From positions 38,609-102,608 of the forward strand of contig JBAMLY010000009.1 of the NCBI GenBank assembly GCA_039794045.1: a DNA stretch of 64,000 nucleotides. Reading direction: 5' to 3'. Numbering within the stretch: position 1 is the stretch's first letter; each line of letters opens with the position of its first letter. The position numbers and the translations under genes are program-made. Of the stretch, positions 38,089 through 50,856 are shown one piece after another. This DNA is from Candidatus Micrarchaeia archaeon (GTDB taxonomy: Archaea > Micrarchaeota > Micrarchaeia > Norongarragalinales > UBA8480). Under the pieces are notes generated by a model, which saw nothing but the letters and a program-made list of their open reading frames with translations, was not told the origin of the DNA and searched no databases.

Positions 38089-39645
38089 ATGGCTTACTTG
38101 GACGAATTGATAGGGAAAGCGAAAGCGCAAAAAAAGGGAGTGGCTGGGCTCACGCCTGGCACGAAAGAACCAGAAAAGCCAGGCGGGCCAGAAAAAGAAA
38201 AAGTGTTGATTGACACTTACGACTCAGTCCACATCTACCGCGTGCCAGGAGAAGCCCTCTACTTCTACGAAGTCCCAACCCCGCGCTACCGCGGCGAAGA
38301 AAAAGCCTTGATTCAAGCCCTCATGGACATCGCAAGCAAAGTAATAGAAAGCGAGCACGAAGTCCCCCGCACTCTAGAGCAAAAGCGTTTCGCTTACAAG
38401 CAAAAAATCCTTGACATAATAGAGTCAACGCCGGAACTCAAAGTGCCGCCTGCCGCTAAAGAATTTTATGCTGACGCGGTAGTGCGCGAGATGGTAGGCT
38501 GGGGCTTGATAGACCCGCTCCTGGAAGACGAGTGGCTTGAAGATGTTATGGTGAACGGCCCAAACCAGCCAGTCTACGTCTTCCACAGGAAATACGACAT
38601 GATGAAGACGAACATAGTCTTCTACGACGACAAAGACATTCGCGACTTGATAGACCGCATCGCGCGCACCATAGGACGCCACATAGACATTCAAACCCCT
38701 TTGCTGGACGCGAGGCTCCCCGACGGAACGCGCGTGAACGCAACAGTGCCGCCAGCGAGCTTGAACGGCTCCACTTTGTCAATAAGAAAGTTCCGCACCG
38801 ACCCAATAACCATAATAGACTTAGTAAACTACGGCACGCTCAACTACGAAGTGGCCGCGTTTCTTTGGCTGGCAGCCGACGGCTTCGGAGCAAAGCCAGC
38901 CAACATGATAATAAGCGGCGGCACGGCAAGCGGGAAGACGACGCTATTGAACGTCATCTCGTCACTGGTGCCGAACAGCGAGCGCGTCATCACAATAGAA
39001 GACACTGCTGAACTCAACTTGCCGCTGGAGCAATGGGTTCGCTTTGAAACAAGGCCTCCTGGCGTGGAGGGCGGCGGCGAACTCACGATGGACATGCTGT
39101 TAAAGAACTCGCTGCGCATGAGGCCAGACCGCATCATTGTCGGCGAAATCCGGGGAGAGGAAGGACACACTCTTTTCTCGGCGATGAACACAGGACACGA
39201 CGGCTGCCTTGGAACGCTTCACGCAAACAGCGCGCGTGAAACCCTCATTCGCCTCAGCAACCCGCCAATCAACGTTCCCCTCATAATGCTTTCTTCCCTC
39301 AACTTCATCATAATGGAGCAGAGAATCAATGACCGCCGCAAGGGACTCATTCGCCGCATCACGGAAATAGCGGAAGTGATTTCAGTAGAGGAAAACAAGA
39401 TGCCCGAACTCCAAGTAATCTATCAATGGGACCCCGCAAAAGACGTCCTGCAAAGCACTGGAATGAATCCCTTGTACTTCCAAGTACTGCAGCGCTACAC
39501 GGCCTACACCAAGGACGTCATAGAAGAAGAACTCAAAAACCGCGCCAACATATTGAGGGAACTAAACTCGCGTGGCGTGCGCAGCCTCTCTGACGTGTGC
39601 GCCGTAACCCACAACTACATCTTGCGCACTCAAGGAAAACTGTGA
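38089..39645 (+). CDS. Type IV pilus assembly ATPase (FlaI/PilB/TadA-like); start moved to MAYLDEL
   Basis: Walker A ISGGTASGKTT, Asp/His boxes (RPDRIIVGEIRG, GTLHANS). It heads a locus with PilC-like genes and many prepilins. Confidence 0.85.
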   Translation: MAYLDELIGKAKAQKKGVAGLTPGTKEPEKPGGPEKEKVLIDTYDSVHIYRVPGEALYFYEVPTPRYRGEEKALIQALMDIASKVIESEHEVPRTLEQKRFAYKQKILDIIESTPELKVPPAAKEFYADAVVREMVGWGLIDPLLEDEWLEDVMVNGPNQPVYVFHRKYDMMKTNIVFYDDKDIRDLIDRIARTIGRHIDIQTPLLDARLPDGTRVNATVPPASLNGSTLSIRKFRTDPITIIDLVNYGTLNYEVAAFLWLAADGFGAKPANMIISGGTASGKTTLLNVISSLVPNSERVITIEDTAELNLPLEQWVRFETRPPGVEGGGELTMDMLLKNSLRMRPDRIIVGEIRGEEGHTLFSAMNTGHDGCLGTLHANSARETLIRLSNPPINVPLIMLSSLNFIIMEQRINDRRKGLIRRITEIAEVISVEENKMPELQVIYQWDPAKDVLQSTGMNPLYFQVLQRYTAYTKDVIEEELKNRANILRELNSRGVRSLSDVCAVTHNYILRTQGKL

Positions 39646-39657
39646 GGCCTTCAGTGA

Positions 39658-40797
39658 ATGCCTGAAAGCAAGCTGGAAAAAATAAAGCGCGCCGTGGAAA
39701 AAACAGAGCTTGAAACCCGCGCCGAAGTCTTGAAGGAAGAAGAGCTGGCGCGCCGCCGCGAACTCGACGAAATAATCGCAAAACTCAAGGAAAAACAAAA
39801 AAAAGGTTTTGTGGCAGAAAAGCGGCTGGAAAAAATAAAGGAGCACGTAGAAGAAAAACCAGAAATAAGCGAGGAAGAAACCAAGGCAGCAATCCGCTTG
39901 CAAGTAAGCAAGACGAAGGGAGTAGGCTGGTTTTACTCTTCCCTGCAAAAACCCATAACTTCAGTGTCAAAAGTTTTCTCTGTTATTCCAGTCGCAAAAA
40001 ACTTGAAGAAAGAACTCGCAAGCGCAGACATGCACATCACGCCAGAAGCCTACCTCGCCCTAACTACCACGGTCTCCGTCATAGCCGCAATAACTACTTG
40101 GATTGCCGCAGGCATTCTAGCGACTAGCTTGAGTAACTTGAGTGTAATAGAAATAGCTTCATCTATCTCGCTTGCCTTCGTTGGAGCAGTGCTGGCGTTC
40201 TTCGGGGTTTCTGCAGTCGCGCTCGCTTACCCTTCAATTCGCGCGTCCGAGCGAGCAAACAAAATAGACAAGGAACTGCCGTTCGCGTTGCGCCACCTCG
40301 CCACTCAACTCAAGGCCGGCGTGAGCCTCAACCGCGCAATGCGGTCAGTCGCGGACGCCAACTACGGCGCACTCACGCAAGAGTTCAGAAAAACGCTCGC
40401 TGACTTGGAGAGCGGCTTGAGCACGGAAGACGCGTTATTGAAGCTTGCAGACCGCAACCGCTCTCGAGGCCTAAAGCGCGCGGTAGTGCAAATAACGCGC
40501 GCGATCAGGACGGGCGGAAACCTCGCCGAAATAATTTCATCCATAGCAGACGACATCTCGTTTGAGTCCCGCATGAAAATACGCGACTTCACGGAAATGC
40601 TGAACATAATAAGCATAGTCTACATAATGGTAGGAGTAGTCGCGCCAGTAATGATAACCATTCTGTCCGCCGTAGCCCAGCTGCCAGTGTTCGGTGGCGG
40701 GATAGCATTCGGATTAGTGCTCGCAGTGTTCGCGGGAATAGTGGGCGCTACTGGCGCCCTCATCTTCCTAATCAAGAGACTAGAACCAGTAGCGTGA
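39658..40797 (+). CDS. Type IV pilus platform membrane protein (TadC/FlaJ/PilC-like)
   Basis: 379 aa with a coiled-coil N-terminus, then TM helices and a GspF/TadC-like cytoplasmic segment (LPFALRHLATQLKAGVSLNRAMRSVAD). Follows the ATPase. Confidence 0.65.
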   Translation: MPESKLEKIKRAVEKTELETRAEVLKEEELARRRELDEIIAKLKEKQKKGFVAEKRLEKIKEHVEEKPEISEEETKAAIRLQVSKTKGVGWFYSSLQKPITSVSKVFSVIPVAKNLKKELASADMHITPEAYLALTTTVSVIAAITTWIAAGILATSLSNLSVIEIASSISLAFVGAVLAFFGVSAVALAYPSIRASERANKIDKELPFALRHLATQLKAGVSLNRAMRSVADANYGALTQEFRKTLADLESGLSTEDALLKLADRNRSRGLKRAVVQITRAIRTGGNLAEIISSIADDISFESRMKIRDFTEMLNIISIVYIMVGVVAPVMITILSAVAQLPVFGGGIAFGLVLAVFAGIVGATGALIFLIKRLEPVA

Positions 40798-40801
40798 AAA
40801 A

Positions 40802-41845
40802 ATGACTTCGCTTTCGCAGCAGTGGGAAAACTTGAAGCGCTACTATGCGGCAACCGGCTTCCGAATAAGCCTGCCTGCCTTCATGGCGGTGATGCTGGCT
40901 TTCGCGGCAATAGCTGCCATGGCAAGCCTTGCGTTAATTCAACTCTTGCCGCCGGACTTGAAGCAGAACGCCCCCATAGTCGCGGCAGCATGCTTTGCAG
41001 CAATAATTTCGTTAATCATAGGCATTCCCGTTACGATCAGAAACAACCGCATTTCAGCAATAGAAAATAACTTGCCTGACGCGCTCAAGCACATGGCTTT
41101 AGTATTAAAGGCAGGCGGAACCACTGAAGCCGCGCTAGAAGAAGTGGCGAACGCAGACTACGGCCCACTCAGCGCAGACCTCAAAATTGGCTTGAAGGGC
41201 TTGAAGGAAGGAAAGCCGTTCGACGACGTGCTCCGCGAAACCGCAATAAACACTGGCTCGGTGTTGTTCAACAGGACTAGCGCAATAATGGTTGACGCGC
41301 GCCGCGCTGGCGCTGGCTTGGCAGATGTCATGAACGCGGTGGGAGACGACGCGCGAGACATTCTCCGCATCGGGCGCGAGCGAAAGAGTAGGACGATGAT
41401 GCACGTAATGTTCCTAATAATTTCAGGGTTGTTTCTCTCGCCATTCATTTTCGGCTTCACGATGAGCATTGTTTCCTTCATGTCTTCCGGAATTGCAGTG
41501 AGCGGCACAGGGCTCGGCGAAAGCGGGAGCACCGTCAACATGACAATCGCAGACTGCAGGGTTCCCTGCCTCATTCAAACCGACCCAGTAATGGCTGGCT
41601 TTCTCGCGGCCGGCCTTGCTCCCTTGAACACCGTAAAGCCATTGTACGAGTGGAGGCTCAACGCAATGGACCAGCTTTTAATGGTTTTCCTCGCAATAGT
41701 TTCAATAGTCACGCTCGTAGCAATAGGAGTTATAAGGGAAGGAAAACTGTTCAAGTACGTGCTTTACTTCCCCTTCGCCATACTCGCAGTAATAGTAATA
41801 TATTTGGCTGGAAAAATATTCAGTGGATTCATTATTGGGTCGTGA
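40802..41845 (+). CDS. Second TadC/FlaJ/PilC-like platform membrane protein
   Basis: 347 aa, paralogous in layout (LPDALKHMALVLKAGGTTEAALEEVANADYG). Tandem with the 39658 gene, as split PilC halves would be. Confidence 0.65.
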   Translation: MTSLSQQWENLKRYYAATGFRISLPAFMAVMLAFAAIAAMASLALIQLLPPDLKQNAPIVAAACFAAIISLIIGIPVTIRNNRISAIENNLPDALKHMALVLKAGGTTEAALEEVANADYGPLSADLKIGLKGLKEGKPFDDVLRETAINTGSVLFNRTSAIMVDARRAGAGLADVMNAVGDDARDILRIGRERKSRTMMHVMFLIISGLFLSPFIFGFTMSIVSFMSSGIAVSGTGLGESGSTVNMTIADCRVPCLIQTDPVMAGFLAAGLAPLNTVKPLYEWRLNAMDQLLMVFLAIVSIVTLVAIGVIREGKLFKYVLYFPFAILAVIVIYLAGKIFSGFIIGS

Positions 41846-41849
41846 AAAA

Positions 41850-41951
41850 ATGAGGGCGCAAACAGCAATAGAATACCTTCTCTTGATAGCGATGGCGGTT
41901 GTCGCGGTAACCGCCATAACTTACTTCGTGAAAACGGTTTTGTCGCGGTGA
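41850..41951 (+). CDS. Minipilin (33 aa) with class III signal peptide; absent from the ORF track
   Basis: MRA|QTAIEYLLLIAMAVVAVTAITYFVKTVLSR, with Q+1 and E+5. I found it by reading the sequence, and it is below the ORF-track size cutoff. Confidence 0.45.
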   Translation: MRAQTAIEYLLLIAMAVVAVTAITYFVKTVLSR

Positions 41952-41958: not shown

Positions 41959-42165
41959 ATGGATGAAAAAGCACAGGGAGCATTCGAGTACATTTTAATG
42001 CTGGCAGGCATTCTCTTGATCGTGGTCGTAATAATAATGGTGGTGAAGTCCAACATTCTCTCGCCGGCCACAGGGACAGTAGAACAAACAACTGGTCAAT
42101 ACCAGCAAACCACTAACTGTAGTGACTTGAACGCTTCAACGCTGCAGGAATGCTTGAACAAATAA
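41959..42165 (+). CDS. Short pilin (68 aa), class III signal peptide MDEKA|QGAFEY
   Basis: The signal peptide and helix are nearly identical to the four major pilin paralogs, but the C-terminal part is short (2 Cys, sequons NCS, NAS). Confidence 0.6.
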   Translation: MDEKAQGAFEYILMLAGILLIVVVIIMVVKSNILSPATGTVEQTTGQYQQTTNCSDLNASTLQECLNK

Positions 42166-42179: not shown

Positions 42180-42602
42180 ATGGGTTTTGCGCCGCGAAAG
42201 GGACAGGGAGCCTTCGAGTACATATTATTGCTCGCTGGCATTCTCTTAATAGTAGTAATCGTAATAATAGTCCTCAAAAGCGGTTTGACGCAGCAGTCGA
42301 GCACGAACATTGGAGAGTCAAGCGAGAAAATCCGCGTGAACGCGGCAGTGCGGTGCCTAGACTTCTGCGGCGACGGCGCGTGGGCTTGGGTAAAGTCAGC
42401 TAACTCGTCGATAACGCTTCAATACAACTCTTCTTGCCCGATTGCCGCAGGACTCAATGGAACTCCTAATTGCTTCTGGACTGGAAGCGACAACGCCGTC
42501 GGCTGCAACGCCACGTGGTCTACTGGAAGCAGCGTCTACGCCAACACTCCGCCCAACAACGCGAAATTCTGTCAGTTGGCGCAGCAGAGCTCGAGCAGCT
42601 GA
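42180..42602 (+). CDS. Major pilin paralog 1 (class III signal peptide, 6-Cys framework)
   Basis: MGFAPRKG|QGAFEYILLLAGILLIVV, then CLDFCGDGAW and C..NC..GCNAT..FC. Sequons NSS, NSS, NGT, NAT. RBS AGGAAGGTG upstream. Confidence 0.75.
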   Translation: MGFAPRKGQGAFEYILLLAGILLIVVIVIIVLKSGLTQQSSTNIGESSEKIRVNAAVRCLDFCGDGAWAWVKSANSSITLQYNSSCPIAAGLNGTPNCFWTGSDNAVGCNATWSTGSSVYANTPPNNAKFCQLAQQSSSS

Positions 42603-42643: not shown

Positions 42644-43081
42644 ATGCCACGAAAACGCGGGCAAGGAGCTTTTGAATACATCTTGTTAGTCGCAGGCATT
42701 CTGTTAATCGTGGTCGTCGTCGTCTTGCTCTTGAAGTCAGGCGTAGTGCAAGGCGCGCAGAAAAACGTTGGCGAAAGCAGTGGAAGGCTTTCCGTGAACA
42801 GCAAGATAAGCTGCCTAGATTTCTGCGGCGAAGGGGCTTGGAGTTACGTGGCGAACGCCGAGCCAAGCGCGCGCGTGACGCCTTACGTTGACGCGTGCAC
42901 TCTCGCGGAAGGAGTGAACGGCAACGCTTCCTGTTTTTACGGTGAAAGCGACGCGGCTGCGCGCGACGGCGCCTACCATTACTGGTGCAACGCATCCAAC
43001 GTGACTGGAATGCAGAAGTACGCAAACACGCGTCCCAACAACCAGTTGTTCTGCGGCTACGTGCGCGAAAACGCTCCCTGA
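42644..43081 (+). CDS. Major pilin paralog 2; start moved to MPRKRG|QGAFEY
   Basis: Same signal peptide; CLDFCGEGAW, AC..SC..WCNAS..FCGYV. Sequons NAS, NAS, NVT. Confidence 0.75.
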   Translation: MPRKRGQGAFEYILLVAGILLIVVVVVLLLKSGVVQGAQKNVGESSGRLSVNSKISCLDFCGEGAWSYVANAEPSARVTPYVDACTLAEGVNGNASCFYGESDAAARDGAYHYWCNASNVTGMQKYANTRPNNQLFCGYVRENAP

Positions 43082-43099: not shown

Positions 43100-43588
43100 T
43101 TGATTATTGGCTTAAACGGTTTGAGAGAGATTAAATTGAGAATTCCAGAGTTTGGGAAAAGAGGCCAGGGAGCCTTTGAATACATTTTGCTCGTCGCAGG
43201 CATTCTGCTCATCGTCGTGCTCGTCATACTACTCCTAAAGGGCGGGCTGGTGTCGCAAAGCGGTGCCAACGTGGCCGAGTCAGGCGAGAAAGCACGCATA
43301 AACAGCGAAATAAATTGCCTGCAATTCTGTGGCGCTGGCGCGTGGAAGTACATAACGCCAAATGCGAAGGGTAATTACACTAATTGCACTGTAAGAGAAG
43401 GAATAACCGGCAATCCGGCGTGCTTCTGGAACGCCAGCACTGGCGACACGGCAACCTGCAACGTCACTGCAGTTCTCATCGAGGCAGGCTATACTCCATC
43501 CGAGGCAGCAAAATACTACAATGTAACGCCCGCCAACACTGACTTCTGCGGCTACGTAAGGCAGACCGCCAAGGAAAGCACGAGGTAA
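43100..43588 (+). CDS. Major pilin paralog 3 (start uncertain: TTG at 43100, 43121 or 43136)
   Basis: ...EFGKRG|QGAFEYILLVAGILLIVV; CLQFCGAGAW, NC..AC..TCNVT..FCGYV. Sequons NYT, NCT, NAS, NVT, NVT. A TTTATAT box sits at about 43088. Confidence 0.7.
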   Translation: MIIGLNGLREIKLRIPEFGKRGQGAFEYILLVAGILLIVVLVILLLKGGLVSQSGANVAESGEKARINSEINCLQFCGAGAWKYITPNAKGNYTNCTVREGITGNPACFWNASTGDTATCNVTAVLIEAGYTPSEAAKYYNVTPANTDFCGYVRQTAKESTR

Positions 43589-43686: not shown

Positions 43687-44157
43687 ATGGTGCCCACCTT
43701 GAATTTAAAAAAGAAGAAAGGGCAGGGAGCCTTCGAGTACATCTTGCTCGTCGCAGGCATTCTGCTCATCGTAGTAATCGTGGTCTTCCTGTTGAAGGGA
43801 GGACTGCAAGCGCAAGCCGGAAGCGGCGGTGTAGTAAGCACGAGCACGGAAAAAATCAACATCAACGTGGAAAGCCAGTGCTTGGACTTCTGCGGCCCGG
43901 GCGCTTGGGCAGCGTACGGAGTGCAAAACAGTGACTTCGCAAACACTAATTGCACTCTCGCCGAAGGAGTAAACGGCAACAGCAGCTGCTACTACTCTGC
44001 AACCACTATAGGCAATAACGGCTTATGTAACGCGACTTACGTCTTAAAGCCCGGCGTTGCGCAAAGCAAGGGCTTACTGAACTCAAGTGGCGCCACGGTA
44101 GTACACCCGCAGAACACGCAGTTCTGCACTTACGTGCGCCAAGCAAGAGCAGGCTAG
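43687..44157 (+). CDS. Major pilin paralog 4
   Basis: MVPTLNLKKKKG|QGAFEYILLVAGILLIVV; CLDFCGPGAW, NC..SC..LCNAT..FCTYV. Sequons NCT, NSS, NAT, NSS. GGAGGG RBS upstream. Confidence 0.75.
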   Translation: MVPTLNLKKKKGQGAFEYILLVAGILLIVVIVVFLLKGGLQAQAGSGGVVSTSTEKININVESQCLDFCGPGAWAAYGVQNSDFANTNCTLAEGVNGNSSCYYSATTIGNNGLCNATYVLKPGVAQSKGLLNSSGATVVHPQNTQFCTYVRQARAG

Positions 44158-44235: not shown

Positions 44236-44406
44236 ATGGACGAGCGAGCGCAGACCGCCACTGAGTACTTGCTTATTCTAGCGCTTGGCCTCGTCTTGCT
44301 CGGCGTCGTGCTCGCCATGGCTTTGCGCCTCCGCGACTTCAGCAACGTCTTGACCGGCCGCGTGGCAGAAGAAAGAAACAATACCTTGTCGATGCTAGTC
44401 AGCTGA
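44236..44406 (+). CDS. Minipilin (56 aa) with class III signal peptide; absent from the ORF track
   Basis: MDERA|QTATEYLLILALGLVLLGVVLAMAL.... The start mirrors the ORFs at 1846 and 41959. Confidence 0.5.
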   Translation: MDERAQTATEYLLILALGLVLLGVVLAMALRLRDFSNVLTGRVAEERNNTLSMLVS

Positions 44407-44439: not shown

Positions 44440-45492
44440 ATGCAGTACGCCTTGCCGGCATTAGTGGCAGCAGCTTTTGCTTGCACTGCAACAGTGTGGG
44501 ACTTGAGGAAGCGCTTGATTCCCAACGCGTTAAACTATTCATTTCTCGCCGCGGGGGCGGCGCTGGCGCTAGCGCAAGGAATTTTTTCTGTGGGTTACGT
44601 CGGACTAGTTGCGTTGTCTTTTGCTTTCGCTTATGCTTTGTACAAGGCAGGCGTTTGGGCTGGGGGAGACGCAAAGTTTTTCACGGCGCTCTCGTCTTTC
44701 CTGCCTTTCTTTTGGCAAGTACCGTTGACTGGCTGGAACGTTTTCTCTTTCCTAGCAATATTTTTTTACTCGGTGGCAGCAGGAGTGCCTGTCACTCTCC
44801 TCGCTTGCGCGCCAAAGCTGTGGTTGTTGCGTGGCGAGCTCGCTTCGCTCTTGCGCGCAGCAGCGCCGCGCGCTTTCTCGGCAGCGCTTGCTTCAGCGGC
44901 GGTTGCCTTTGCGTTGCAAAAGTTTTTCGCGCTCGTTCCACAAGCTGGTTGGGTTGCCTCGGCAGCCGCAGTCGTGTTTTTGTTGGCGGCGCGCGTGCCG
45001 CTAGCGGTTTCTGCGGCCGTCTTCGTTGCCGCTCTCGCGCTAGACCCGTTGAACTCGCTTGAGTTGTTTGCTGGCGCGCTCGCGGTCTCGTGGCTTGCGT
45101 TGTTCGCGTGGCAGGCGCTCGCGCTTGCCAGGAACAAGGTTTTGCGCCGCCACGTGAGAGTAGACGAGTTAGAAGAGGGAATGATTCCGGCTTACTCTGT
45201 GGTCGTTGACGAGAGCGGAAGAGCGCGGGAGTTGAGAACGCCTGGCTTAAAGGAGTTGCTTGCCGCCGCGGGAAAGGCTGATGCTGCCGCGCTGGCGCGG
45301 TTGCTCAAGCCACGGGAAAGAATAGTCGCGGACTCCAGGCTAGCTCGTGGTTTGAGTGAGACAGAGATAAAGGAATTAAAGGCGCTTGGAGTAAAGAGTT
45401 TGGTTGTCCGCGAGTCCATCGCGTTCGCGCCAGTAATGGTTGCTGGGTTCGCGTTGGCGGCTTTGCTGGGAGTGAAGTGGCTTGGCTTTTAA
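44440..45492 (+). CDS. Prepilin/preflagellin peptidase (A24 family, FlaK/PibD/EppA-like)
   Basis: First catalytic Asp in DLRKRLIPN, second in GGDAKFF, and a polytopic membrane topology. At 350 aa it has a long hydrophobic C-terminal extension. Confidence 0.8.
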   Translation: MQYALPALVAAAFACTATVWDLRKRLIPNALNYSFLAAGAALALAQGIFSVGYVGLVALSFAFAYALYKAGVWAGGDAKFFTALSSFLPFFWQVPLTGWNVFSFLAIFFYSVAAGVPVTLLACAPKLWLLRGELASLLRAAAPRAFSAALASAAVAFALQKFFALVPQAGWVASAAAVVFLLAARVPLAVSAAVFVAALALDPLNSLELFAGALAVSWLALFAWQALALARNKVLRRHVRVDELEEGMIPAYSVVVDESGRARELRTPGLKELLAAAGKADAAALARLLKPRERIVADSRLARGLSETEIKELKALGVKSLVVRESIAFAPVMVAGFALAALLGVKWLGF

Positions 45493-45916
45493 GAGAGGAC
45501 AGTTGGGAATAGAGTTTTTCTTGGTGGTGGCGTTCGTGCTTGTTCTCGGCAGCGTCTTGAGTGCTTCCGTGGACGAGCAAGTCATTGCCGCGAGGGCCTT
45601 AGACAGGGCTGCGCTAGCGAAAAGCGCGGTGGATGCAGTGTCTCACGCAATAAACCTCGTCACGCTGGAAGGCAACGGGGCTCTTGCCAGCAGAGAAGTT
45701 TTCTTTCCAGCTGAAACGCAGTGCATCCAGTACAGCAGCGCACGCAAGGCGCTTTACTGCGATGTCGCGGGAGCAGGCAAGGTTTACGGCGTAGCGCTTT
45801 ACCGCGAGCCGACAGTGTTACTGAATTGTTTTTCTTCAGGCACTCAAGGCTGGTTCCTTGTGACCGTGAATGGAACCAGCAATGGAGCGCAAGTTAATTG
45901 TACTAAACTGGGTTGA
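45482..45916 (+). CDS. Pilin-like protein (class III signal peptide MAFKRG|QLGIEFF), TTG start
   Basis: Q+1 and E+5, a hydrophobic helix and 3 Cys. It overlaps the peptidase stop by 11 nt. Confidence 0.6.
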   Translation: MAFKRGQLGIEFFLVVAFVLVLGSVLSASVDEQVIAARALDRAALAKSAVDAVSHAINLVTLEGNGALASREVFFPAETQCIQYSSARKALYCDVAGAGKVYGVALYREPTVLLNCFSSGTQGWFLVTVNGTSNGAQVNCTKLG

Positions 45917-45922: not shown

Positions 45923-46312
45923 TTGCGGGGGCAAGCTTTTTCAGAGTATTTGCTCGTCGTCGCCTTCATCGTGGCGCTGGCGGCGTTCTTCGTGCTTCCA
46001 GGCGCCCACCAAACAGAGGTGACGATGGGCTTGGCTGGCGCGCGCCTGGGTTGCGCGGAATACTCTGCAATTGAAAACTCTTCAGTTTACTGCACAGAGT
46101 TTTCTTACGCGGCAAGCGGACCGAACTTGACTATTTATCCCAAGGTGTTCGACTTGCAAGGCAAAAGAGTCACGGACTTGCCTGGAAGTTTTTACGCGCG
46201 AGTAATTTCAGGCATCGCAGGAAACATTTTAAACAACCGGAGTTTTTCTTGCGTTAACTGTATTTCGTGTTGGGTGGGGCACTACAATTACTGTGTTAAC
46301 GCGACGAGTTGA
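45923..46312 (+). CDS. Pilin-like protein (class III signal peptide MRG|QAFSEYLL), TTG start
   Basis: Q+1 and E+5, 6 Cys, sequons NSS, NLT, NRS, NAT. Confidence 0.6.
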   Translation: MRGQAFSEYLLVVAFIVALAAFFVLPGAHQTEVTMGLAGARLGCAEYSAIENSSVYCTEFSYAASGPNLTIYPKVFDLQGKRVTDLPGSFYARVISGIAGNILNNRSFSCVNCISCWVGHYNYCVNATS

Positions 46313-46836
46313 TGCGAGTGGACAACGCTTCAAAGTTTTACTTGCTGCTTGTTTGCGGGCTCGCGTTCGCCAGCGTTTCGGCTTTCGCGGAACCTTTGTT
46401 AGCGTTCGCTGGCTTTGCAGCGTTCTTGGTTGCAGCCATTGCTTTATCTAAGCGGTTCAAGGAAGCCGAGTTAAATGACGCGTGGAAGCTGCTCGCGCTC
46501 ACTGCCGTGATGGCTGCGCTCATGTTCAACGCGCGGTTGTTGTCTCGCGCTGGCGCTTTCGCCGTCGCAGTTGCGCTTGCTGTAGTCGTAGCGGCGTTCA
46601 CTGCGTTCAAGTTGCTTGCAAGCCGCAACGCGGTTGGCAGGGTGGTGGGGAGAAGGCGCGGCTTCATTTTAGTTGAAACAACTCGTTCGCTCTTGTCTCC
46701 TCTTCCTCCAGGAGTTTACGCCGTGAAAAGCACTGCAAGGCACCGAGAAGGAGAAAAAGTTGAGTTGCGCGTGAGCAAGGGCTTGTTTGGCCCGCCAAAG
46801 CCCGTGGAAGTGCTTTCTTGCAAGAAAAAGGAATAA
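46312..46836 (+). CDS. Membrane protein with C-terminal beta-rich (possibly NfeD-like OB) domain
   Basis: Three TM helices then GFILVETTRSLLSPLPPGVYAVKS...GEKVELRVSKG. Its ATG overlaps the upstream stop (TGATG). Confidence 0.4.
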   Translation: MRVDNASKFYLLLVCGLAFASVSAFAEPLLAFAGFAAFLVAAIALSKRFKEAELNDAWKLLALTAVMAALMFNARLLSRAGAFAVAVALAVVVAAFTAFKLLASRNAVGRVVGRRRGFILVETTRSLLSPLPPGVYAVKSTARHREGEKVELRVSKGLFGPPKPVEVLSCKKKE

Positions 46837-47201
46837 TTTTTTTCTGCGTCATCGTCTCGCTTGCAGGGGTGGCGGCGCTGTTTTTCTTGTCTTGGTCTCT
46901 CGAGCCACGCAAGGCAGCAATAAACGAGTTGGGTTTGGAGGACGTCGGCAAGAAAGTGCTTGTTTCTGGGTTTGTGGCGTCCGCGCGCAAGTCTGGCGGA
47001 AACTATTTCTTGAAGGTCTGCGATTCAAGCGCCTGCATTCAAGTCCCCGTTTTTTCCTCTGTTGCGGCGAGAATGAAGGAAAGGGGTTTTGACGCGGGCA
47101 GCGTGGGAAAGGGAGACTTCATTGAAGTAGTAGGCGCGGTAAGCGAGTACGGCGGCGAGCTCGAAGTCGTGGCAGCCGAGTTAGACGTGCTTAGAAAATG
47201 A
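46818..47201 (+). CDS. Membrane-anchored OB-fold protein
   Basis: N-terminal TM helix then KKVLVSGFVASARKSGGNYFLKVCDSSACIQV...GDFIEVVGAVSEYGGELEVV, a typical OB-fold (tRNA_anti-like) pattern. Confidence 0.45.
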   Translation: MQEKGIIFFCVIVSLAGVAALFFLSWSLEPRKAAINELGLEDVGKKVLVSGFVASARKSGGNYFLKVCDSSACIQVPVFSSVAARMKERGFDAGSVGKGDFIEVVGAVSEYGGELEVVAAELDVLRK

Positions 47202-48343
47202 GTGAGTTAGTCGCTTTTCTTGCTGGAACCGCGGTCGGCGCGCTCGGATTGATTCCGTTTCTTCACACTAACACTTTAGTGGAGTTGCTTCCGCGTTTTC
47301 TTGAAAGCGGGCCTGCAGCCGTTTTCGTGGTCTCCCTCGCCTTCAGCCACGCCGTGTTCGAAGTGCTTCCCGCGACTTTCTTTGCGGTGCCGTCCGCCTC
47401 GCAGAACATAAGCGTCGTGCCTGCGCACAGGCTAGCTCGCGAGGGGAAAGGCTTTCAAGCAATGAAGTTGATGGCTTACTCTCTCGCCGCCGGCGTTTTC
47501 TTTGGCGTGCTCGCGTCTCCTGCAGCCACGTTCTTGCTTCCATTGGCTTACTCGCTCGTCAAGCCAGTTACGGCCTTGCTTTTGTGCGGCGTGGTCGCAG
47601 TAATGCTCGCAGGAGAAAAAAACTTTTTCGCGGGATTGATTGTAGCGTGCTTGTCTGGATTGCTGGGCTTAGCTTCTTTTGGCTTGCCTCTCCCAGAACC
47701 AGTTTTTCCTTTGCTGGCGGGCTTGTTCGCAGTTCCTGCAGCGCTTGCTGGCGCTCGCGCGAGCGAGTTGGTGGAGCAGAGTGCGGGCGAACCACGCGTG
47801 CCGTGGGCGATGGTGCTGCTCGGCGCTTTTCTTGGCGCGTGCTCTGGGTTGCTGCCTGCCTTGAGTCCCGCCCTCTTGGCGGGAATCGCTTTCGTCTTCG
47901 TCAAGTCTGGTTCGGAGAAATTCATTGCTTTGACTTCCTCGATTGCCGGCGCAAAACTGGTTTCCGACTTGATAGTGCTTGGAGAGCTCGGCAAGGCCAG
48001 GTCTGGCGCGGCCGCAGCAGTGCAAAGCTTTCTTGGAGTGCCTTCTGCAACTGAAACCACTTTATTGGTGGTAGCGGGCGCGGCTGCGCTCGCGGCAGCG
48101 CTGGCTGCGCTGTTGCTGGTTTACAGGCGGGCCGCGCTAGCGCTTTGCGGCAAAAACTATGCTTTTTCAAGCAAGGTTTTCTTGTCGTTCTTGGCAGTCA
48201 TGTTGTTCTTTTTCGGTGGTTGGCTGGCTTTATTTGTTTGCGCTGTCGCCGCGTGCGTGGGAGTGCTTGCGCTCTTGCTGAATTGCAAGCGCAGCCTATG
48301 CTGTGCGGCGCTCTTGGTTCCAGCAATAGCTGCCTTGATTTAA
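47198..48343 (+). CDS. Polytopic Ala/Gly-rich membrane protein (possibly DUF112/TctA-like)
   Basis: 381 aa with roughly 10 TM helices. ATGA overlap with the upstream gene. The family call is from memory. Confidence 0.45.
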   Translation: MSELVAFLAGTAVGALGLIPFLHTNTLVELLPRFLESGPAAVFVVSLAFSHAVFEVLPATFFAVPSASQNISVVPAHRLAREGKGFQAMKLMAYSLAAGVFFGVLASPAATFLLPLAYSLVKPVTALLLCGVVAVMLAGEKNFFAGLIVACLSGLLGLASFGLPLPEPVFPLLAGLFAVPAALAGARASELVEQSAGEPRVPWAMVLLGAFLGACSGLLPALSPALLAGIAFVFVKSGSEKFIALTSSIAGAKLVSDLIVLGELGKARSGAAAAVQSFLGVPSATETTLLVVAGAAALAAALAALLLVYRRAALALCGKNYAFSSKVFLSFLAVMLFFFGGWLALFVCAVAACVGVLALLLNCKRSLCCAALLVPAIAALI

Positions 48344-48373: not shown

Positions 48374-48790
48374 ATGGTGCGCGCCCAACTGTCAATTGAA
48401 TTGTTTTTTGCTTTAGCATTGTTTTTCCTGGTGCTTTCGTGGGTGTCAAACTATGCTTCCACTGTCTATGACTCGCCAGCCCTCGTTTACACGCAGGAAA
48501 AAGCGGTAGCCAACTCACTGGTTGCCGCCGCGAACGCAGCCTGCGCTTCAAACACTTCGTCTTCTTTTTATTTGCCCTGCATTTCCAAGCGCGGCACAAA
48601 CTACGACTACGAGGCATTCAACGCGACCTCTAACTCGCCCGAGTTGCGAGTGCGCGTTCCAGCCCTGAACTCGTTCGCGCAAGCCAGGGCCTTGTGCCCA
48701 ATTTCAGGTTACGCCTCGGCTGAATGCGGGACTCTCGTGTGCATGAAAAGTAATTCTTCGTCAGTGTTGCTGAAAAACGGTGCTTGTTGA
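48374..48790 (+). CDS. Pilin-like secreted protein (class III signal peptide MVRA|QLSIELFF)
   Basis: Q+1 and E+5, 7 Cys, sequons NTS, NAT, NSS. Confidence 0.55.
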   Translation: MVRAQLSIELFFALALFFLVLSWVSNYASTVYDSPALVYTQEKAVANSLVAAANAACASNTSSSFYLPCISKRGTNYDYEAFNATSNSPELRVRVPALNSFAQARALCPISGYASAECGTLVCMKSNSSSVLLKNGAC

Positions 48791-49162
48791 GTGAAGGGAC
48801 AATTTTTCACAATGGATTTCCTCGCCGCAATAATAGTGGTCACTGCAGTGGTAGGTGGAATGCTTCACTTCCACGAACTCAACCAAAAAGCCTTCCTGCG
48901 CGCGACTGAATACAACTCTAACTCTGCTGAAGCGCTGGCGGAATACTTCGTGAACAACAACGCCACGCCTCCCTTCCAGCCGGCTTGCTGGTGCGCAGTG
49001 ATGCGGAACGCGACAAGCGTTTTCTACGACGACTGCAGAGAAAAAGAGTGCATGCGTTCTTGCAGTACGGTGTTCGCAGCAACGCGTCTTTCCCGCTACT
49101 GCTTGAACGCTACTTGCCCATGCGAAGGAGTTTCGTGTGCTTTAGAGGTGAGAACGTGCTGA
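48791..49162 (+). CDS. Cys-rich pilin-like secreted protein (MKG|QFFTMDF), GTG start
   Basis: K-G-Q motif plus a hydrophobic helix, 11 Cys, and three NAT sequons. The start codon abuts the upstream stop. Confidence 0.5.
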   Translation: MKGQFFTMDFLAAIIVVTAVVGGMLHFHELNQKAFLRATEYNSNSAEALAEYFVNNNATPPFQPACWCAVMRNATSVFYDDCREKECMRSCSTVFAATRLSRYCLNATCPCEGVSCALEVRTC

Positions 49163-49542
49163 AGGCCGCCATACTGTCTTTCGACGCGCTGCTGGCGCTT
49201 GCCGTCGCCGCTATAGCGTTCGGCTCAGTTGTTTCGTTCAGCAGCCTTGGCGCCGACAACTCCAAGAACGCACAGTTGAACGCGTTGGCGTGGGACTTCC
49301 TACACGACAAATACGGATTGAATTTGACTGTTTCAGCTGACGACTTCCACAACTTGACTGGACGCCACGTATTCGAAAGCCCTCCTTCAACAGCGCCCGC
49401 CGGGCACGCTCTTTACTACAAGTACAACAACTTGTGCGGTTGCGGGCAGTCATGCTACCTTGAAAACGAAATTAACACGTCGTGCTTGGAAGCGCAGGAC
49501 AATAACTCGAAGTACGAGTTCGAGGCTTGGGTGACTCCTTGA
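49156..49542 (+). CDS. Secreted or membrane-anchored protein with N-terminal hydrophobic helix (GTG start overlapping the upstream stop)
   Basis: GTGCTGA start-stop overlap. MLKAAILSFDALLALAVAAIAF, then CGCGQSC and sequons NLT, NLT, NTS. Confidence 0.4.
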   Translation: MLKAAILSFDALLALAVAAIAFGSVVSFSSLGADNSKNAQLNALAWDFLHDKYGLNLTVSADDFHNLTGRHVFESPPSTAPAGHALYYKYNNLCGCGQSCYLENEINTSCLEAQDNNSKYEFEAWVTP

Positions 49543-50192
49543 AAGCGTTTTTTTCGGCTTTGAGCGCGGCCCTCGTCATCGCAGCGATAACTGCTTCCGC
49601 GATCGCCGTACTCCACCTCTCCTCTCAAGAGGAAGTACAGCTCGCGCAAGTTTCAGCGAAAATAGCTTCCGATCGCCACGCATCAGTAAAACAGTTTTTC
49701 GCTGACGCTGTGAACGACGCCTTAGCTGACGCGGCTTACTCTGTTTACGGGTGCGCGCCATCCAAGCCAAATTTTTGCGAGCAAGTGAATCGCTCCACGT
49801 CTACAGACAAGGTCGTGGCTTACCTGAATTGGTCGCTTTCAGCCACTAACAACTCGCTAGTGGCAGTGTCTTACTCTCTCGCCAACCCTTACGCAACCCT
49901 CCCTTACGAGTGCTACGAGTTCGCCGCAGAACCCGGCTACAACCACTCATTCAATTACTCGACGCTATTGAACTTGCGAGTGGACTCGCCGAACGCCTTC
50001 AAACAAGACCAAACGCTTTTGTCCCGCAACGTTTCAGTGCGCGACTACGCACCAAAAATAATTAATGCAAGTCAAACTTGCTCGGAAGCCCAGTTGCTGC
50101 GCATCACGATTACCGGCAACTACGGTGCCGCCAAAGACTTCCTAGTAGACTGCAACCAAACCATCGACTTAGGCAACAACCCCTGCCCCTAA
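49539..50192 (+). CDS. Secreted or membrane-anchored protein with N-terminal hydrophobic helix (TTG start overlapping the upstream stop)
   Basis: cTTGAa overlap. MKAFFSALSAALVIAAITASAIAVL, and many sequons (NRS, NWS, NNS, NHS, NYS, NVS, NAS, NQT). An alternative TTG start lies at 49527. Confidence 0.4.
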   Translation: MKAFFSALSAALVIAAITASAIAVLHLSSQEEVQLAQVSAKIASDRHASVKQFFADAVNDALADAAYSVYGCAPSKPNFCEQVNRSTSTDKVVAYLNWSLSATNNSLVAVSYSLANPYATLPYECYEFAAEPGYNHSFNYSTLLNLRVDSPNAFKQDQTLLSRNVSVRDYAPKIINASQTCSEAQLLRITITGNYGAAKDFLVDCNQTIDLGNNPCP

Positions 50193-50238
50193 GTTTTTCG
50201 CAAGGATTTAAAGAGGAAACAACTCTTACTAGTAAGGG

Positions 50239-50856
50239 ATGCAAATGACTAAAAAACTCGTATTATGGGCTTTGTTCTTCCTCGTGCTCGCAATAGTCGT
50301 GCCTCCCTTCCTAAGCTTAGTGGACTATTCATTGAACGCCAAAAACTCGCAGCAAATAGACGCGGCACTCGCCGCGAAGCTAATCAAGGACGACGCGCGC
50401 GCGGCGTTCGGCGAGAGCGCGGCAGTCACGCTTAAGTCGCTCAACCAGAAAAACGGCAAATGGGAAGCAGAAGTGGAAATAGAGCAAGAACCGCACTCTG
50501 CCTGCCCAAAGCTCTACCGCCGGTATTACTCCCTTATGCCTATTTACTCGGTGACCGAAAACGTTTTGACTTCCTGTCAAGCCCTGCCCCCCGTAAGCAA
50601 CCGCGTCGAAGCAATAATTTTTTCTTCAAAGCTAGCCTCAATAGCGCAGCACGCTAATGCTAACGCCTACGCTTGCGCGTTCAAGGCCGGCGAAGAAATA
50701 GACTCTTCTTACTGCCCGAAAGCCAGTCCCGCCGAAATAAAGGCGTTCGCTGACTCTACGCCACGAGCTCGCTGGATAACCGCCTGGTTTTACGGCGACG
50801 GTTCAACTGCACTAATAGCCTTGGACGAGAAAGGAAGCGTGGTAGCGCAGCGCTAG
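50239..50856 (+). CDS. Secreted protein with signal anchor
   Basis: MQMTKKLVLWALFFLVLAIVVPPFLSL. Length 205 aa. Last gene of the pilus locus. Confidence 0.45.
   Translation: MQMTKKLVLWALFFLVLAIVVPPFLSLVDYSLNAKNSQQIDAALAAKLIKDDARAAFGESAAVTLKSLNQKNGKWEAEVEIEQEPHSACPKLYRRYYSLMPIYSVTENVLTSCQALPPVSNRVEAIIFSSKLASIAQHANANAYACAFKAGEEIDSSYCPKASPAEIKAFADSTPRARWITAWFYGDGSTALIALDEKGSVVAQR

What the first reader, a model, noticed from the sequence alone, without database searches (positions are those of the whole stretch)
38089..50856. A ~13-kb archaeal type IV pilus locus with an unusually large complement of prepilin-like genes
One contiguous, same-strand block encodes a PilB/FlaI-like ATPase, two PilC/TadC-like membrane proteins, two minipilins and five pilins sharing one signal peptide. 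It also carries the A24-family prepilin peptidase, two further pilins, three embedded membrane proteins and five more secreted Cys-rich proteins. Most junctions overlap stop and start codons (ATGA, TGATG, GTGCTGA, cTTGA). No archaellum accessory genes (flaC-H) are present, so this is an adhesive pilus or surface-filament system rather than a motility organelle. The number of substrate genes (at least 13) is far above the 1-3 pilins seen in characterised Aap/Ups/Epd loci.
Basis: partly seen in the sequence, partly recalled or inferred. Interest (0 to 1): 0.75.

Follow-up and report, generated by a model that had tools for sequence, protein, structure and literature searches.

The report
Archaeal pilus operon with DNA-uptake genes
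This is a 21-gene type IV pilus operon from a tiny symbiotic archaeon (Micrarchaeota), and inside it sit the two membrane genes that a methanogen needs to take up DNA, so it is probably a DNA-uptake machine rather than only an adhesive pilus.

Summary
Window 38089-50856 (+) carries 21 tightly packed same-strand genes: one secretion ATPase, two single-domain platform genes, an A24 prepilin peptidase, and 13 proteins with class III (prepilin) N-termini. The organism is a Candidatus Micrarchaeota (DPANN) genome assembled from a metagenome.

By architecture it is an Epd-like ("system 1 / clade 1", Tad-related) pilus. This kind is already known to carry many pilins and to occur in DPANN, so the pilin count is not the novelty.

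A pair of the same families and order is essential for natural transformation in Methanococcus maripaludis, as is its Epd pilus (PMC10133366).

The OB-TctA-five-gene core is collinear in all 16 related Micrarchaeota loci with enough flank; two of them have the whole operon. Pilin genes are not linked to TctA in 64 other archaeal loci.

Best reading: a self-contained nucleic-acid uptake pilus (confidence about 0.5). Direct comparison with the Methanococcus proteins was not possible. The verdict is a new variant of a known kind.

The parts
38089..39645 (+). Secretion ATPase (518 aa), FlaI/CpaF/TadA type
   Evidence: PF00437 3e-48. Best solved relatives are CpaF 8rkd 3e-75, A. fulgidus GspE2 2oap 6e-75 and FlaI 4ii7 6e-63. 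Below NCBIfam's FlaI cut-off.
39658..40797 (+). Platform protein 1 (379 aa), one T2SSF domain; aligns to the N-terminal half of FlaJ
   Evidence: PF00482 1e-25. Aligns to FlaJ profile positions 5-246 of 555.
40802..41845 (+). Platform protein 2 (347 aa), one T2SSF domain; aligns to the C-terminal half of FlaJ
   Evidence: PF00482 5e-17. Aligns to FlaJ profile positions 253-476 of 555.
41850..41951 (+). Minipilin mini0 (33 aa), MRA|QTAIEYLLL
   Evidence: Sequence. Called as a gene with a weak PF04021 hit in L001-L005. Motif positive. Orthologs in L088 and L089.
41959..42165 (+). Minipilin mini1 (68 aa), MDEKA|QGAFEYIL; candidate short major pilin
   Evidence: PF04021 1.6e-6. Motif.
42180..42602 (+). 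pilA1 (140 aa; alternative start 42150), 6 Cys
   Evidence: PF04021 5e-8. Paralog alignment at 45-49% identity with 6 invariant Cys.
42644..43081 (+). pilA2 (145 aa), paralog
   Evidence: PF04021 1.8e-7.
43136..43588 (+). pilA3 (150 aa, TTG start), paralog
   Evidence: PF04021 3e-7. Start checked.
43687..44157 (+). pilA4 (156 aa), paralog; the most variable gene between strains
   Evidence: PF04021 5e-8. 97% identity with one indel against L001, while most other genes are 100%.
44236..44406 (+). Minipilin mini2 (56 aa), MDERA|QTATEYLL
   Evidence: Motif. Orthologs in L013, L016, L018, L088 and L089. No Pfam hit.
44440..45492 (+). Prepilin peptidase (350 aa), A24 family, large multi-helix form with a C-terminal Arc_PepC domain
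   Evidence: PF01478 3e-11 and PF06819 1.7e-6. D21 and the GGD77 motif are invariant in 8 orthologs. 7 helices by automated hydropathy, about 9-10 by reading the sequence. No hit to any solved chain, FlaK included.
45482..45916 (+). pilB1 (144 aa), minor-pilin-like, KRG|QLGIEFFL
   Evidence: Motif conserved in 5 orthologs. No Pfam hit.
45923..46312 (+). pilB2 (129 aa), minor-pilin-like, RG|QAFSEYLL
   Evidence: Motif conserved in 7 orthologs.
46309..46836 (+). Four-helix membrane protein (175 aa) with a soluble C-terminal tail; an optional member of the module
   Evidence: Hydropathy. Orthologs only in L013, L017, L018 and L089; absent in L006-L008 and L088. No Pfam or NCBIfam hit.
46818..47201 (+). 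Membrane-anchored OB-fold protein (127 aa): one N-terminal helix, with the OB domain predicted to lie outside the cell
   Evidence: PF01336 2.5e-10. One helix. Charge distribution around the helix in orthologs favours N-in/C-out (inference). Lies directly upstream of TctA in 16 loci.
47198..48343 (+). TctA-like membrane protein (381 aa, ~11 helices); ATGA overlap with the OB gene
   Evidence: PF01970 1.5e-25, full length. Hydropathy. AlphaFold model pLDDT 93. hhalign against euryarchaeal TctA-like proteins gives probability 100%, E 1e-71.
48374..48790 (+). pilC1 (138 aa), minor-pilin-like, RA|QLSIELFF
   Evidence: Canonical motif conserved in 13 orthologs.
48791..49162 (+). pilC2 (123 aa, 10 Cys), KG|QFFTMDFL
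   Evidence: The motif [KR][GA]|QLLS.D is conserved in 11 orthologs.
49156..49542 (+). pilC3 (128 aa, GTG start), KA|AILSFDAL
   Evidence: The motif [KR][GA]|FIFT.DAL is conserved in orthologs. Start checked.
49527..50192 (+). pilC4 (221 aa, 8 N-glycosylation sequons), KA|FFSALSA, with no acidic residue after the cleavage site
   Evidence: [KR][GA]|F is conserved in 13 orthologs with no acidic residue at +5/+6.
50239..50856 (+). pilC5 (205 aa): plain N-terminal anchor, conserved PHSxCP motif, orphan family; not a prepilin by motif
   Evidence: Most conserved downstream gene (E to 1e-88). Only 56 clusters among 1.84 billion representative proteins. No Pfam or PDB relative.

Best explanation
The locus is one operon-like unit that encodes an Epd-like (Tad-related) type IV pilus together with a nucleic-acid uptake module.

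Shown:
- The unit contains an assembly ATPase, a split two-gene membrane platform and a dedicated A24 prepilin peptidase with both catalytic aspartates.
- It also contains three very short pilins, four paralogous cysteine-rich pilins and six minor-pilin-like proteins in a fixed order.
- Embedded in it are a one-helix OB-fold protein and an ~11-helix TctA-like protein, with overlapping stop and start codons.

Inferred:
- The peptidase cuts the prepilins before Gln+1.
- The ATPase and platform polymerise a thin filament from the short pilins.
- The fixed-order minor pilins prime or cap the filament. The one without an acidic residue (pilC4) is the likely tip subunit, by analogy with GspK.
- The filament catches extracellular DNA and brings it to the membrane.
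- The outward-facing OB domain receives the DNA, playing a ComEA-like role.
- The TctA-like protein moves it, or its breakdown products, into the cell, playing a ComEC-like role.

In a DPANN archaeon of reduced genome, this would supply nucleotides, recombination substrate, or both. Whether intact DNA or only fragments or nucleotides cross the membrane is unresolved.
For: 1. All pilus parts are present and adjacent.
2. The OB and TctA genes overlap by ATGA and lie in the middle of the pilin genes.
3. In M. maripaludis, a one-helix OB-fold protein (MMJJ_13020) and the adjacent 11-helix TctA-like protein (MMJJ_13030) are each essential for natural transformation. The defects are complementable, and the TctA homolog of Methanoculleus thermophilus is essential too. 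The same screens also hit the Epd pilus genes epdA, eppA and epdJKL (PMC10133366).
4. The gene order and tight junction are the same there. Primer DF1-226 reads ...gggatTAAATGattaat..., so the stop of 13020 is followed directly by the start of 13030.
5. OB-TctA-pilC1..C5 is collinear in all 16 related Micrarchaeota loci with enough flank, down to 35% TctA identity. The whole 21-gene order is kept in L088 (38%) and L089 (46%), and L088 has different genes upstream (GatD/GatE-type amidotransferase genes instead of Pth2).
6. Prepilin-like ORFs within 5 kb of TctA number 3-8 in that clade and 0-2 in 64 other archaeal loci.
7. TctA-like genes sit next to other extracellular nucleic-acid domains elsewhere. 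These include an OB gene with the same 4-nt overlap in a Woesearchaeon, OB in Nanoarchaeota and L041, and a membrane-anchored bifunctional-nuclease domain in L037 (PF02577, 5e-25).
8. The Micrarchaeota TctA aligns end to end with euryarchaeal TctA-like proteins (hhalign probability 100%, E 1e-71). It keeps the 13 residues invariant across 65 archaeal sequences.
9. The ATPase's best solved relative is CpaF, the single motor that both extends and retracts Tad pili (PMC11300603 abstract).
Against: - No Methanococcus sequence could be retrieved, so homology to MMJJ_13020/13030 rests on family, topology, size and gene order. No alignment or tree was made.
- The Methanococcus paper did not report whether the OB/TctA mutants still make pili. 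The genes could therefore act in pilus function rather than in translocation.
- The OB ectodomains are mostly acidic (pI about 5 in 11 of 18).
- No nuclease, DprA or recombinase gene is in the operon.
- Outside this Micrarchaeota clade, TctA-like genes are not linked to pilus genes.
- Nothing is known about expression or about filaments in this organism.
Confidence: 0.5

Rival explanations
1. It is a host-attachment or adhesion pilus, and the TctA-like protein is a small-molecule importer. In one version the importer is merely co-transcribed. In the other it is fed by pilin-like binding proteins, a bindosome-like arrangement in which prepilin-type proteins replace the missing TctC binding protein and the 4-helix protein replaces TctB.
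For: - Epd pili mediate surface attachment in M. maripaludis (PMC6668835; preprint).
- DPANN archaea need cell contact with a host, and type IV pili are suspected to mediate it (PMC11291902).
- The TctA family is a carboxylate transporter family in bacteria (PMC10133366 discussion).
- The model's nearest solved folds are secondary transporters.
- A 4-helix membrane protein precedes the OB gene in some loci.
- Variation between strains concentrates in the exposed pilA4 and pilA1 genes.
Against: - No TctB or TctC Pfam hit was found.
- The 4-helix gene is absent from several orthologous loci.
- The partner that is conserved is a nucleic-acid-type OB fold (PF01336), not a binding protein.
- The OB/TctA pair is required for DNA uptake in the only organism tested.
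Confidence: 0.25
2. The OB and TctA-like proteins are accessory parts of the pilus machine itself, for example a membrane anchor, an alignment component or a pilin-handling component. The transformation defect in Methanococcus would then be an indirect effect of losing functional pili.
For: - The pair is embedded between minor-pilin genes with overlapping codons and moves with them in evolution.
- Piliation of the Methanococcus mutants was not reported.
Against: - TctA-like genes occur widely in archaea far from any pilus gene. One example is Methanomicrobium, a relative of M. thermophilus, where the gene is needed for transformation.
- The family's invariant residues are kept, which argues for one conserved biochemical activity.
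- An OB fold and a nuclease domain as partners are hard to explain by a purely structural role.
Confidence: 0.15
3. It is a motility organelle (archaellum).
For: The ATPase and platform proteins are homologous to FlaI and FlaJ.
Against: - The ATPase scores 312 bits against a FlaI cut-off of 550.
- The platform is split in two.
- No archaellin, FlaH, FlaF/G or FlaC/D/E domain was found in any of the 21 proteins.
Confidence: 0.01

Closest known systems
Epd (EppA-dependent) pilus of Methanococcus maripaludis; 'clade 1' of Makarova 2016, 'system 1' of the 2026 TFF census
   Same: - Two platform genes with one T2SSF domain each.
- Very short pilins plus many minor pilins.
- The QxSxE-type class III signal (PF04021).
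- Its own large A24 peptidase.
- Extra membrane proteins in the locus.
- Reported presence in DPANN.
   Different: - The gene order is ATPase first here, but platform-platform-ATPase in Epd and Tad.
- No FleN/MinD/FlaH-type second ATPase and no DUF2341 adhesin was found.
- The OB-fold/TctA-like pair and an orphan family (pilC5) lie inside the locus. In M. maripaludis the OB/TctA pair lies at a separate site (different locus tags and insertion coordinates).
MMJJ_13020 (OB-fold) and MMJJ_13030 (TctA-like) of M. maripaludis, essential for natural transformation
   Same: - Same Pfam families.
- Same topology: one helix plus OB, and ~11 helices.
- Same order, with an abutting or overlapping junction.
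   Different: - Here the pair is physically inside the pilus operon.
- Direct sequence comparison was not possible.
- Function in Micrarchaeota is untested.
Bacterial competence machinery (Com or T4a pilus with ComEA and ComEC)
   Same: The proposed logic is the same: a retractile type IV filament, a membrane-anchored DNA receptor outside the cell, and a polytopic membrane translocator. ComEC itself carries an OB-fold domain (my own knowledge).
   Different: There is no sequence or fold relationship. No competence domain, helix-hairpin-helix domain or metallo-beta-lactamase domain was found. The TctA model looks like a secondary transporter.
Bacterial Tad/Flp pilus (CpaF/TadA, TadB, TadC, Flp)
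   Same: - The ATPase's best solved relative is CpaF.
- The platform is split.
- The pilins are short.
- Tad is thought to derive from an Epd-like archaeal system.
   Different: This is an archaeal system with no secretin, no TadZ, and an archaeal class III signal with Gln at +1.
Bacterial tripartite tricarboxylate transporter TctABC
   Same: The large membrane subunit belongs to PF01970 over its full length.
   Different: The protein is shorter (381 aa, ~11 helices). No TctB or TctC was detected. Its partner is an OB-fold protein.
Sulfolobus Ups pilus with the Ced DNA-import system
   Same: It is an archaeal type IV pilus functionally coupled to DNA import.
   Different: Ced is homologous to conjugation machinery (PMC9905601, title and abstract). 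It is unrelated to TctA and is not encoded in the pilus operon.

Membership tests
Archaeal type IV pilus (type IV filament) system | Secretion ATPase of the T2SSE family | tested here: met
   PF00437 3e-48. PDB relatives are CpaF, GspE2 and FlaI.
Archaeal type IV pilus (type IV filament) system | Membrane platform protein with T2SSF domain(s) | tested here: met
   Two genes, PF00482 1e-25 and 5e-17.
Archaeal type IV pilus (type IV filament) system | Class III signal peptidase (A24) with two catalytic aspartates | tested here: met
   PF01478 3e-11. D21 and GGD77 are invariant in 8 orthologs.
Archaeal type IV pilus (type IV filament) system | Filament proteins with a class III signal peptide | tested here: met
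   PF04021 is above its cut-off in 5 proteins. The motif rule is positive in 13. Motifs are conserved by family in orthologs. FlaFind itself was not run.
Epd-like / clade 1 / system 1 pilus | Two adjacent platform genes, each with a single T2SSF domain | tested here: met
   Criterion taken from PMC6668835.
Epd-like / clade 1 / system 1 pilus | Short major pilins without a globular domain | tested here: met
   Prepilins of 33, 56 and 68 aa lie in the locus, and a stand-alone one of about 55 aa lies at window 1846-2013 (-). Which of them is the major pilin is unknown.
Epd-like / clade 1 / system 1 pilus | Dedicated large (9-helix, arCOG02300) EppA-type peptidase | tested here: inconclusive
   The protein is 350 aa. 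Automated hydropathy gives 7 helices, and reading the sequence gives about 9-10. It has no match to the solved FlaK. arCOG assignment and comparison with EppA could not be done.
Epd-like / clade 1 / system 1 pilus | ATPase and platform proteins fall in the Epd/Tad clade in a phylogeny | not tested
   No Epd reference sequences were obtainable. The only indirect support is that the best solved relative is CpaF.
Epd-like / clade 1 / system 1 pilus | Second ATPase (FleN/MinD/TadZ-like or FlaH) in the locus | tested here: not met
   No such Pfam hit in any of the 21 proteins. The literature describes it as frequent rather than universal.
Archaellum | FlaI equivalog, FlaH, FlaF/G, archaellins | tested here: not met
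   FlaI model score is 312 bits against a 550 cut-off. No archaellin or accessory domains.
Archaeal OB-fold / TctA-like transformation pair (MMJJ_13020/13030 type) | One-helix membrane protein with a nucleic-acid-type OB fold, directly upstream of the TctA-like gene | tested here: met
   PF01336 2.5e-10. One helix. ATGA overlap. The junction is the same type in M. maripaludis.
Archaeal OB-fold / TctA-like transformation pair (MMJJ_13020/13030 type) | Archaeal-type TctA-like protein of about 400 aa with ~11 helices | tested here: met
   PF01970 1.5e-25. 11 hydrophobic segments. hhalign against Thermococcus, Methanomicrobiales and Archaeoglobus proteins gives probability 100%.
Archaeal OB-fold / TctA-like transformation pair (MMJJ_13020/13030 type) | Orthology to the M. 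maripaludis proteins by alignment or tree | not testable with these tools
   Three protein searches returned no Methanococcus sequence.
Archaeal OB-fold / TctA-like transformation pair (MMJJ_13020/13030 type) | Requirement for DNA uptake | not testable with these tools
   This needs genetics or biochemistry.
Bacterial tripartite tricarboxylate transporter (TctABC) | TctA together with TctB and a TctC binding protein | tested here: not met
   Only PF01970 was found. No TctB or TctC hit appears in the locus, even at E up to 0.1 for the 4-helix protein.

The most novel reading that the evidence does not exclude
A clade of Micrarchaeota encodes, in a single operon, a complete archaeal competence machine. 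In it, an outward-facing OB-fold receptor and a TctA-family protein with a secondary-transporter fold do the jobs of bacterial ComEA and ComEC. The TctA-like protein would then be the long-sought archaeal DNA (or oligonucleotide) translocator, evolved independently of the bacterial one and here physically wired to its pilus.
Probability: 0.35. Interest if true: 0.85.

Novelty: new variant of a known kind. Interest (0 to 1): 0.62.

Why it matters
How archaea move DNA across the membrane during natural transformation is an open question. They lack ComEC, and the only candidate so far is a TctA-like protein found by a genetic screen in one methanogen (PMC10133366).

This locus adds independent evidence from gene neighbourhood. 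In a distant archaeal phylum the same OB-fold/TctA-like pair has been built into the pilus operon, and it has stayed there through deep divergence.

That strengthens the idea that the pilus, the OB protein and the TctA-like protein work as one machine. It also names candidate partners to test: the fixed set of minor pilins, the orphan pilC5 family and the optional 4-helix protein.

Finally, it suggests how genome-reduced DPANN archaea, which cannot make nucleotides, might feed on or recombine with foreign DNA. This parallels what is proposed for the competence pili of Patescibacteria.

Tried and rejected
1. Three searches of the large protein collection never returned a Methanococcus or Methanoculleus protein, so no direct comparison with the published genes was possible. 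The queries were the window TctA, a mixed archaeal alignment and a euryarchaeal alignment.
2. The AlphaFold model of pilA1, built from only its four paralogs, was poor (pLDDT 52). Only the N-terminal helix was credible, so the globular pilin fold could not be confirmed. Orthologs from fetched loci are not accepted by the structure tool.
4. The idea that the OB protein is itself a prepilin was rejected. The window protein has KG|I before its helix, but orthologs have no conserved [KR][GA] site.
5. The archaellum reading and the canonical TctABC reading were rejected.
6. My first impression was that relatives lack the ATPase and platform genes next to the module. This is true for L006, L015 and L018, but it had to be corrected, because L088 and L089 have the whole operon.
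7. The bacterial-type promoter and terminator scan was uninformative. It found 8 sites against 5.5 expected and 25 against 22 expected, and archaeal promoters are not covered.
8. pilC5 has no Pfam, NCBIfam or PDB relative, even when searched with a 39-sequence profile.

Full report
**What is there**

Between 38089 and 50856 the + strand carries 21 genes in one direction. Pfam assigns the following.
- A T2SSE secretion ATPase (38089-39645, 3e-48).
- Two T2SSF platform proteins (39658-40797 and 40802-41845).
- The Class_IIIsignal family PF04021 for a 68-aa protein and four 140-156-aa paralogs.
- Peptidase_A24 plus Arc_PepC (44440-45492).
- The TctA family PF01970 over the full length (47198-48343, 1.5e-25).

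A 33-aa prepilin gene (41850-41951) lies below the default ORF length. It is called as a gene in the public copies of this contig.

Nearly identical contigs (99-100% per gene) occur in two NCBI genomes assembled from metagenomes and in one JGI metagenome. NCBI names the organism Candidatus Micrarchaeia/Micrarchaeota, a DPANN archaeon. G+C content is even across the window (0.50-0.57), so nothing suggests a recent insertion.

**Prepilin signals**

A FlaFind-like rule I wrote looks for [KR][GA] within the first 40 residues, followed by an uncharged hydrophobic stretch. It marks 13 locus proteins as prepilin-like (plus the OB protein, discussed below), against only 5 other ORFs among 660 in the window.

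Ten have the canonical Gln at +1 and Glu at +5: mini0, mini1, pilA1-4, mini2, pilB1, pilB2 and pilC1. In orthologs from other Micrarchaeota the motif is conserved family by family.
- pilC2 keeps |QLLS.D.
- pilC3 keeps |FIFT.DAL.
- pilC4 keeps [KR][GA]|F with no acidic residue.
- pilC5 has only a plain membrane anchor.

The OB protein's KG|I is not conserved in orthologs, so it is an ordinary anchor. All predicted exported proteins have even numbers of cysteines (4-10) and many N-glycosylation sequons. The four pilA paralogs are 45-49% identical with six invariant cysteines.

The structure prediction for pilA1 was too poor to confirm a pilin fold beyond the N-terminal helix. FlaFind itself was not available.

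**The machine**

The ATPase is closest to CpaF of the Tad pilus and to A. fulgidus GspE2 (both about 1e-75), then to FlaI (1e-63). It is far below NCBIfam's FlaI cut-off.

The two platform proteins align to the N- and C-terminal halves of FlaJ, which makes this a split platform. The peptidase has both catalytic aspartates, D21 and the GGD77 motif, invariant in eight orthologs. It is much larger than FlaK/PibD-type enzymes, with 7 helices by automated hydropathy and about 9-10 when I read the sequence. It matches no solved chain.

None of the 21 proteins has an archaellin, FlaH, FlaF/G, FlaC/D/E, MinD/FleN or DUF2341 domain.

Of the 20 junctions, 6 overlap and 13 are 14 nt or less. The longer gaps (41-98 nt) lie around the pilA paralogs.

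**Which known kind**

Denise et al. define the Epd-like/Tad lineage by two platform genes with one T2SSF domain each and by short pilins (PMC6668835). Makarova et al. describe clade 1 systems as follows (PMC4858521).
- An ATPase and two TadC proteins.
- Roughly 70-aa major pilins, often encoded by stand-alone genes.
- At least five minor pilins.
- The 9-helix peptidase EppA.
- More complexity than any other archaeal pilus.

A 2026 preprint reports system 1 in DPANN and stresses its "high variety of pilins" and the 11-gene Epd cluster.

The window's locus meets the architectural criteria. ATPase phylogeny and arCOG assignment of the peptidase could not be tested. The large pilin complement is therefore typical of this kind rather than exceptional. 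None of these three papers mentions TctA, and the Makarova paper was also checked for OB-fold, without result.

**The embedded pair**

The OB-fold protein has one N-terminal helix. Across orthologs the charges flanking that helix favour an N-in, C-out orientation, which puts the OB domain outside the cell (inference). The TctA-like protein has about 11 hydrophobic segments.

Fonseca et al. (PMC10133366) found the following in M. maripaludis.
- A one-helix OB-fold protein (MMJJ_13020) and the adjacent 11-helix TctA-like protein (MMJJ_13030) are each essential for natural transformation, and the defects are complementable.
- The TctA homolog of Methanoculleus thermophilus is essential too.
- The same screens hit the Epd pilus genes (epdA, eppA, epdJKL) and a membrane-anchored thermonuclease.

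They propose the TctA-like protein as the missing archaeal DNA transporter. They did not report whether the mutants still carry pili.

Their primer table shows the stop codon of 13020 followed directly by the start codon of 13030. This is the same tight junction as the ATGA overlap here.

**Comparative genomics**

A scan of one genome per species with a TctA alignment gave 80 loci from many archaeal phyla. Iterated profile searches in those loci gave these results.
- OB-TctA-pilC1-pilC2-pilC3-pilC4-pilC5 is collinear in every related Micrarchaeota locus with enough flank, at TctA identity of 35-46%.
- The peptidase, pilB1 and pilB2 lie upstream in five of the loci fetched.

Two further contigs, L088 (38% identity) and L089 (46%), match the window gene for gene from the ATPase to pilC5. 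L088 has different genes upstream (GatD/GatE-type amidotransferase genes instead of Pth2). In L006, L015 and L018 no ATPase lies within 10 kb.

The number of pilA-type genes varies (one in L088, two in L089, four here), so the expansion here is recent.

Prepilin-like ORFs within 5 kb of TctA number 3-8 in this clade and 0-2 in the other 64 loci. Other Micrarchaeia with a more distant TctA (L022, L059) also lack them. The fusion is therefore specific to one Micrarchaeota clade.

Elsewhere the neighbours of TctA vary.
- In a Woesearchaeon an OB gene precedes it with the same 4-nt overlap.
- OB genes precede it in three Nanoarchaeota loci, and two do so in L041.
- In L037 a membrane-anchored bifunctional-nuclease domain precedes it (PF02577, 5e-25).
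- In eight of the 42 non-Micrarchaeota neighbours scanned, apparently the Methanomassiliicoccales loci, a phosphoribosyltransferase precedes it.
- In Halobacteria the neighbours are ribosomal-protein genes.
- In Thermococcus it is an unannotated 388-aa membrane protein.
- In Methanomicrobium there is no linked partner.

The Micrarchaeota TctA profile aligns end to end with a euryarchaeal profile (probability 100%, E 1e-71). Thirteen residues are invariant across 65 archaeal sequences.

**Structure of the TctA-like protein**

With a 65-sequence alignment the model is confident (pLDDT 93, pTM 0.90). Foldseek finds no solved relative.

**Most likely mechanism**

Shown: the parts list, the tight packing, and the conserved linkage.

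Inferred:
- The peptidase processes the prepilins.
- The ATPase and split platform assemble a thin filament from the short pilins.
- The fixed-order minor pilins prime or cap the filament. pilC4, which lacks the acidic residue, is the probable tip subunit, by analogy with GspK (my own knowledge).
- The filament captures DNA.
- The external OB domain receives it.
- The TctA-like protein imports it or its fragments.

I put this at about 0.5. Three rivals remain.
- An attachment pilus with a co-encoded or bindosome-like small-molecule importer (0.25).
- OB/TctA as accessory parts of the pilus, which would explain the Methanococcus phenotype indirectly (0.15).
- An archaellum (0.01).

Acidic OB ectodomains and the lack of a nuclease or DprA gene in the operon weigh against DNA uptake. 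The nucleic-acid-type partners of TctA in several phyla and the published genetics weigh for it.

**Novelty and limits**

The pilus system is a member of a known kind. The fusion of the OB/TctA pair into it, with the orphan pilC5 family (only 56 clusters among 1.84 billion representative proteins), is not described in any paper found here. I therefore rate it a new variant of a known kind.

The weakest link is that the Methanococcus sequences could not be obtained, so orthology is inferred from family, topology and gene order only. All function is inferred.

Noticed in passing
window 1846-2115 (-), probable true start at 2013: A stand-alone short prepilin gene (MDEKA|QVSAELIIIIAAV..., about 55 aa, PF04021 1.8e-5). 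It is flanked by a DUF116 gene (1232-1810) and an M50-family peptidase gene (2028-2684). It fits the 'small major pilin encoded by a stand-alone gene' pattern of clade 1 systems. An M50 peptidase was also a hit in the Methanococcus transformation screen.
   Followed up: partly
window 39-449 (+) and 437-841 (+): Two more adjacent ORFs with prepilin-like N-termini (MKKG|FFSSDAAIASLLV, MRAVKG|LVFSVEALLSLL) and no Pfam hit. They may be further pilin-like substrates at the window edge.
   Followed up: partly
window 18689-20164 (+): A second T2SSE-family secretion ATPase (491 aa, PF00437 2.6e-35). No platform gene was recognisable next to it, since the two downstream ORFs have no Pfam hit.
   Followed up: partly
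window 10702-12459 (-): A transglutaminase-like protein (585 aa, PF01841 3.7e-23). Makarova 2016 reports a strong link between surface transglutaminase-family peptidases and clade 1 pilus systems.
   Followed up: no
window 8860-10527 (-): A 555-aa protein with thioredoxin/DsbA-like domains. It is a possible disulfide oxidoreductase for the many cysteine-rich exported pilins.
   Followed up: no
window 35005-37652 (-) and 14577-17213 (+): HerA-like (DUF87) and NurA genes lie directly upstream of the operon, divergent from Pth2. A Rad50-like SMC_N protein lies 21 kb away. These are DNA-end-processing genes near a putative DNA-uptake operon. In L089 and L088 the upstream genes differ, so the proximity may be chance.
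   Followed up: partly
window 43687-44157 and 42180-42602 compared with L001-L003: Among near-identical strains, differences concentrate in pilA4 (11 mismatches and one indel against L001) and pilA1 (4 mismatches against L003). Most other genes are 100% identical. This may reflect diversifying pressure on exposed pilins.
   Followed up: partly
L031, L049, L056, L064, L072, L073 and related loci (apparently Methanomassiliicoccales): A phosphoribosyltransferase-domain gene (PF00156) sits directly upstream of the TctA-like gene in 8 of the 42 non-Micrarchaeota neighbours scanned. If it is a purine-salvage enzyme, this hints that TctA-like proteins handle nucleic-acid-derived substrates.
   Followed up: partly
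L037 5741-6268 (+): A membrane-anchored protein with a bifunctional-nuclease domain (PF02577, 5e-25) lies immediately upstream of the TctA-like gene in an uncultured archaeon.
   Followed up: partly
window 46309-46836 (+): The 4-helix membrane protein before the OB gene has a roughly 70-residue soluble tail and no family assignment. It is present in only some orthologous loci. Its size and topology recall TctB, but no similarity was detected.
   Followed up: partly
L086 6853-8019 (+) (Thermococcus piezophilus): A 388-aa protein with no Pfam hit overlaps the start of the TctA-like gene. Its homolog in another Thermococcus (L023, 384 aa) has one N-terminal helix. It may be a divergent counterpart of the OB partner.
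   Followed up: no
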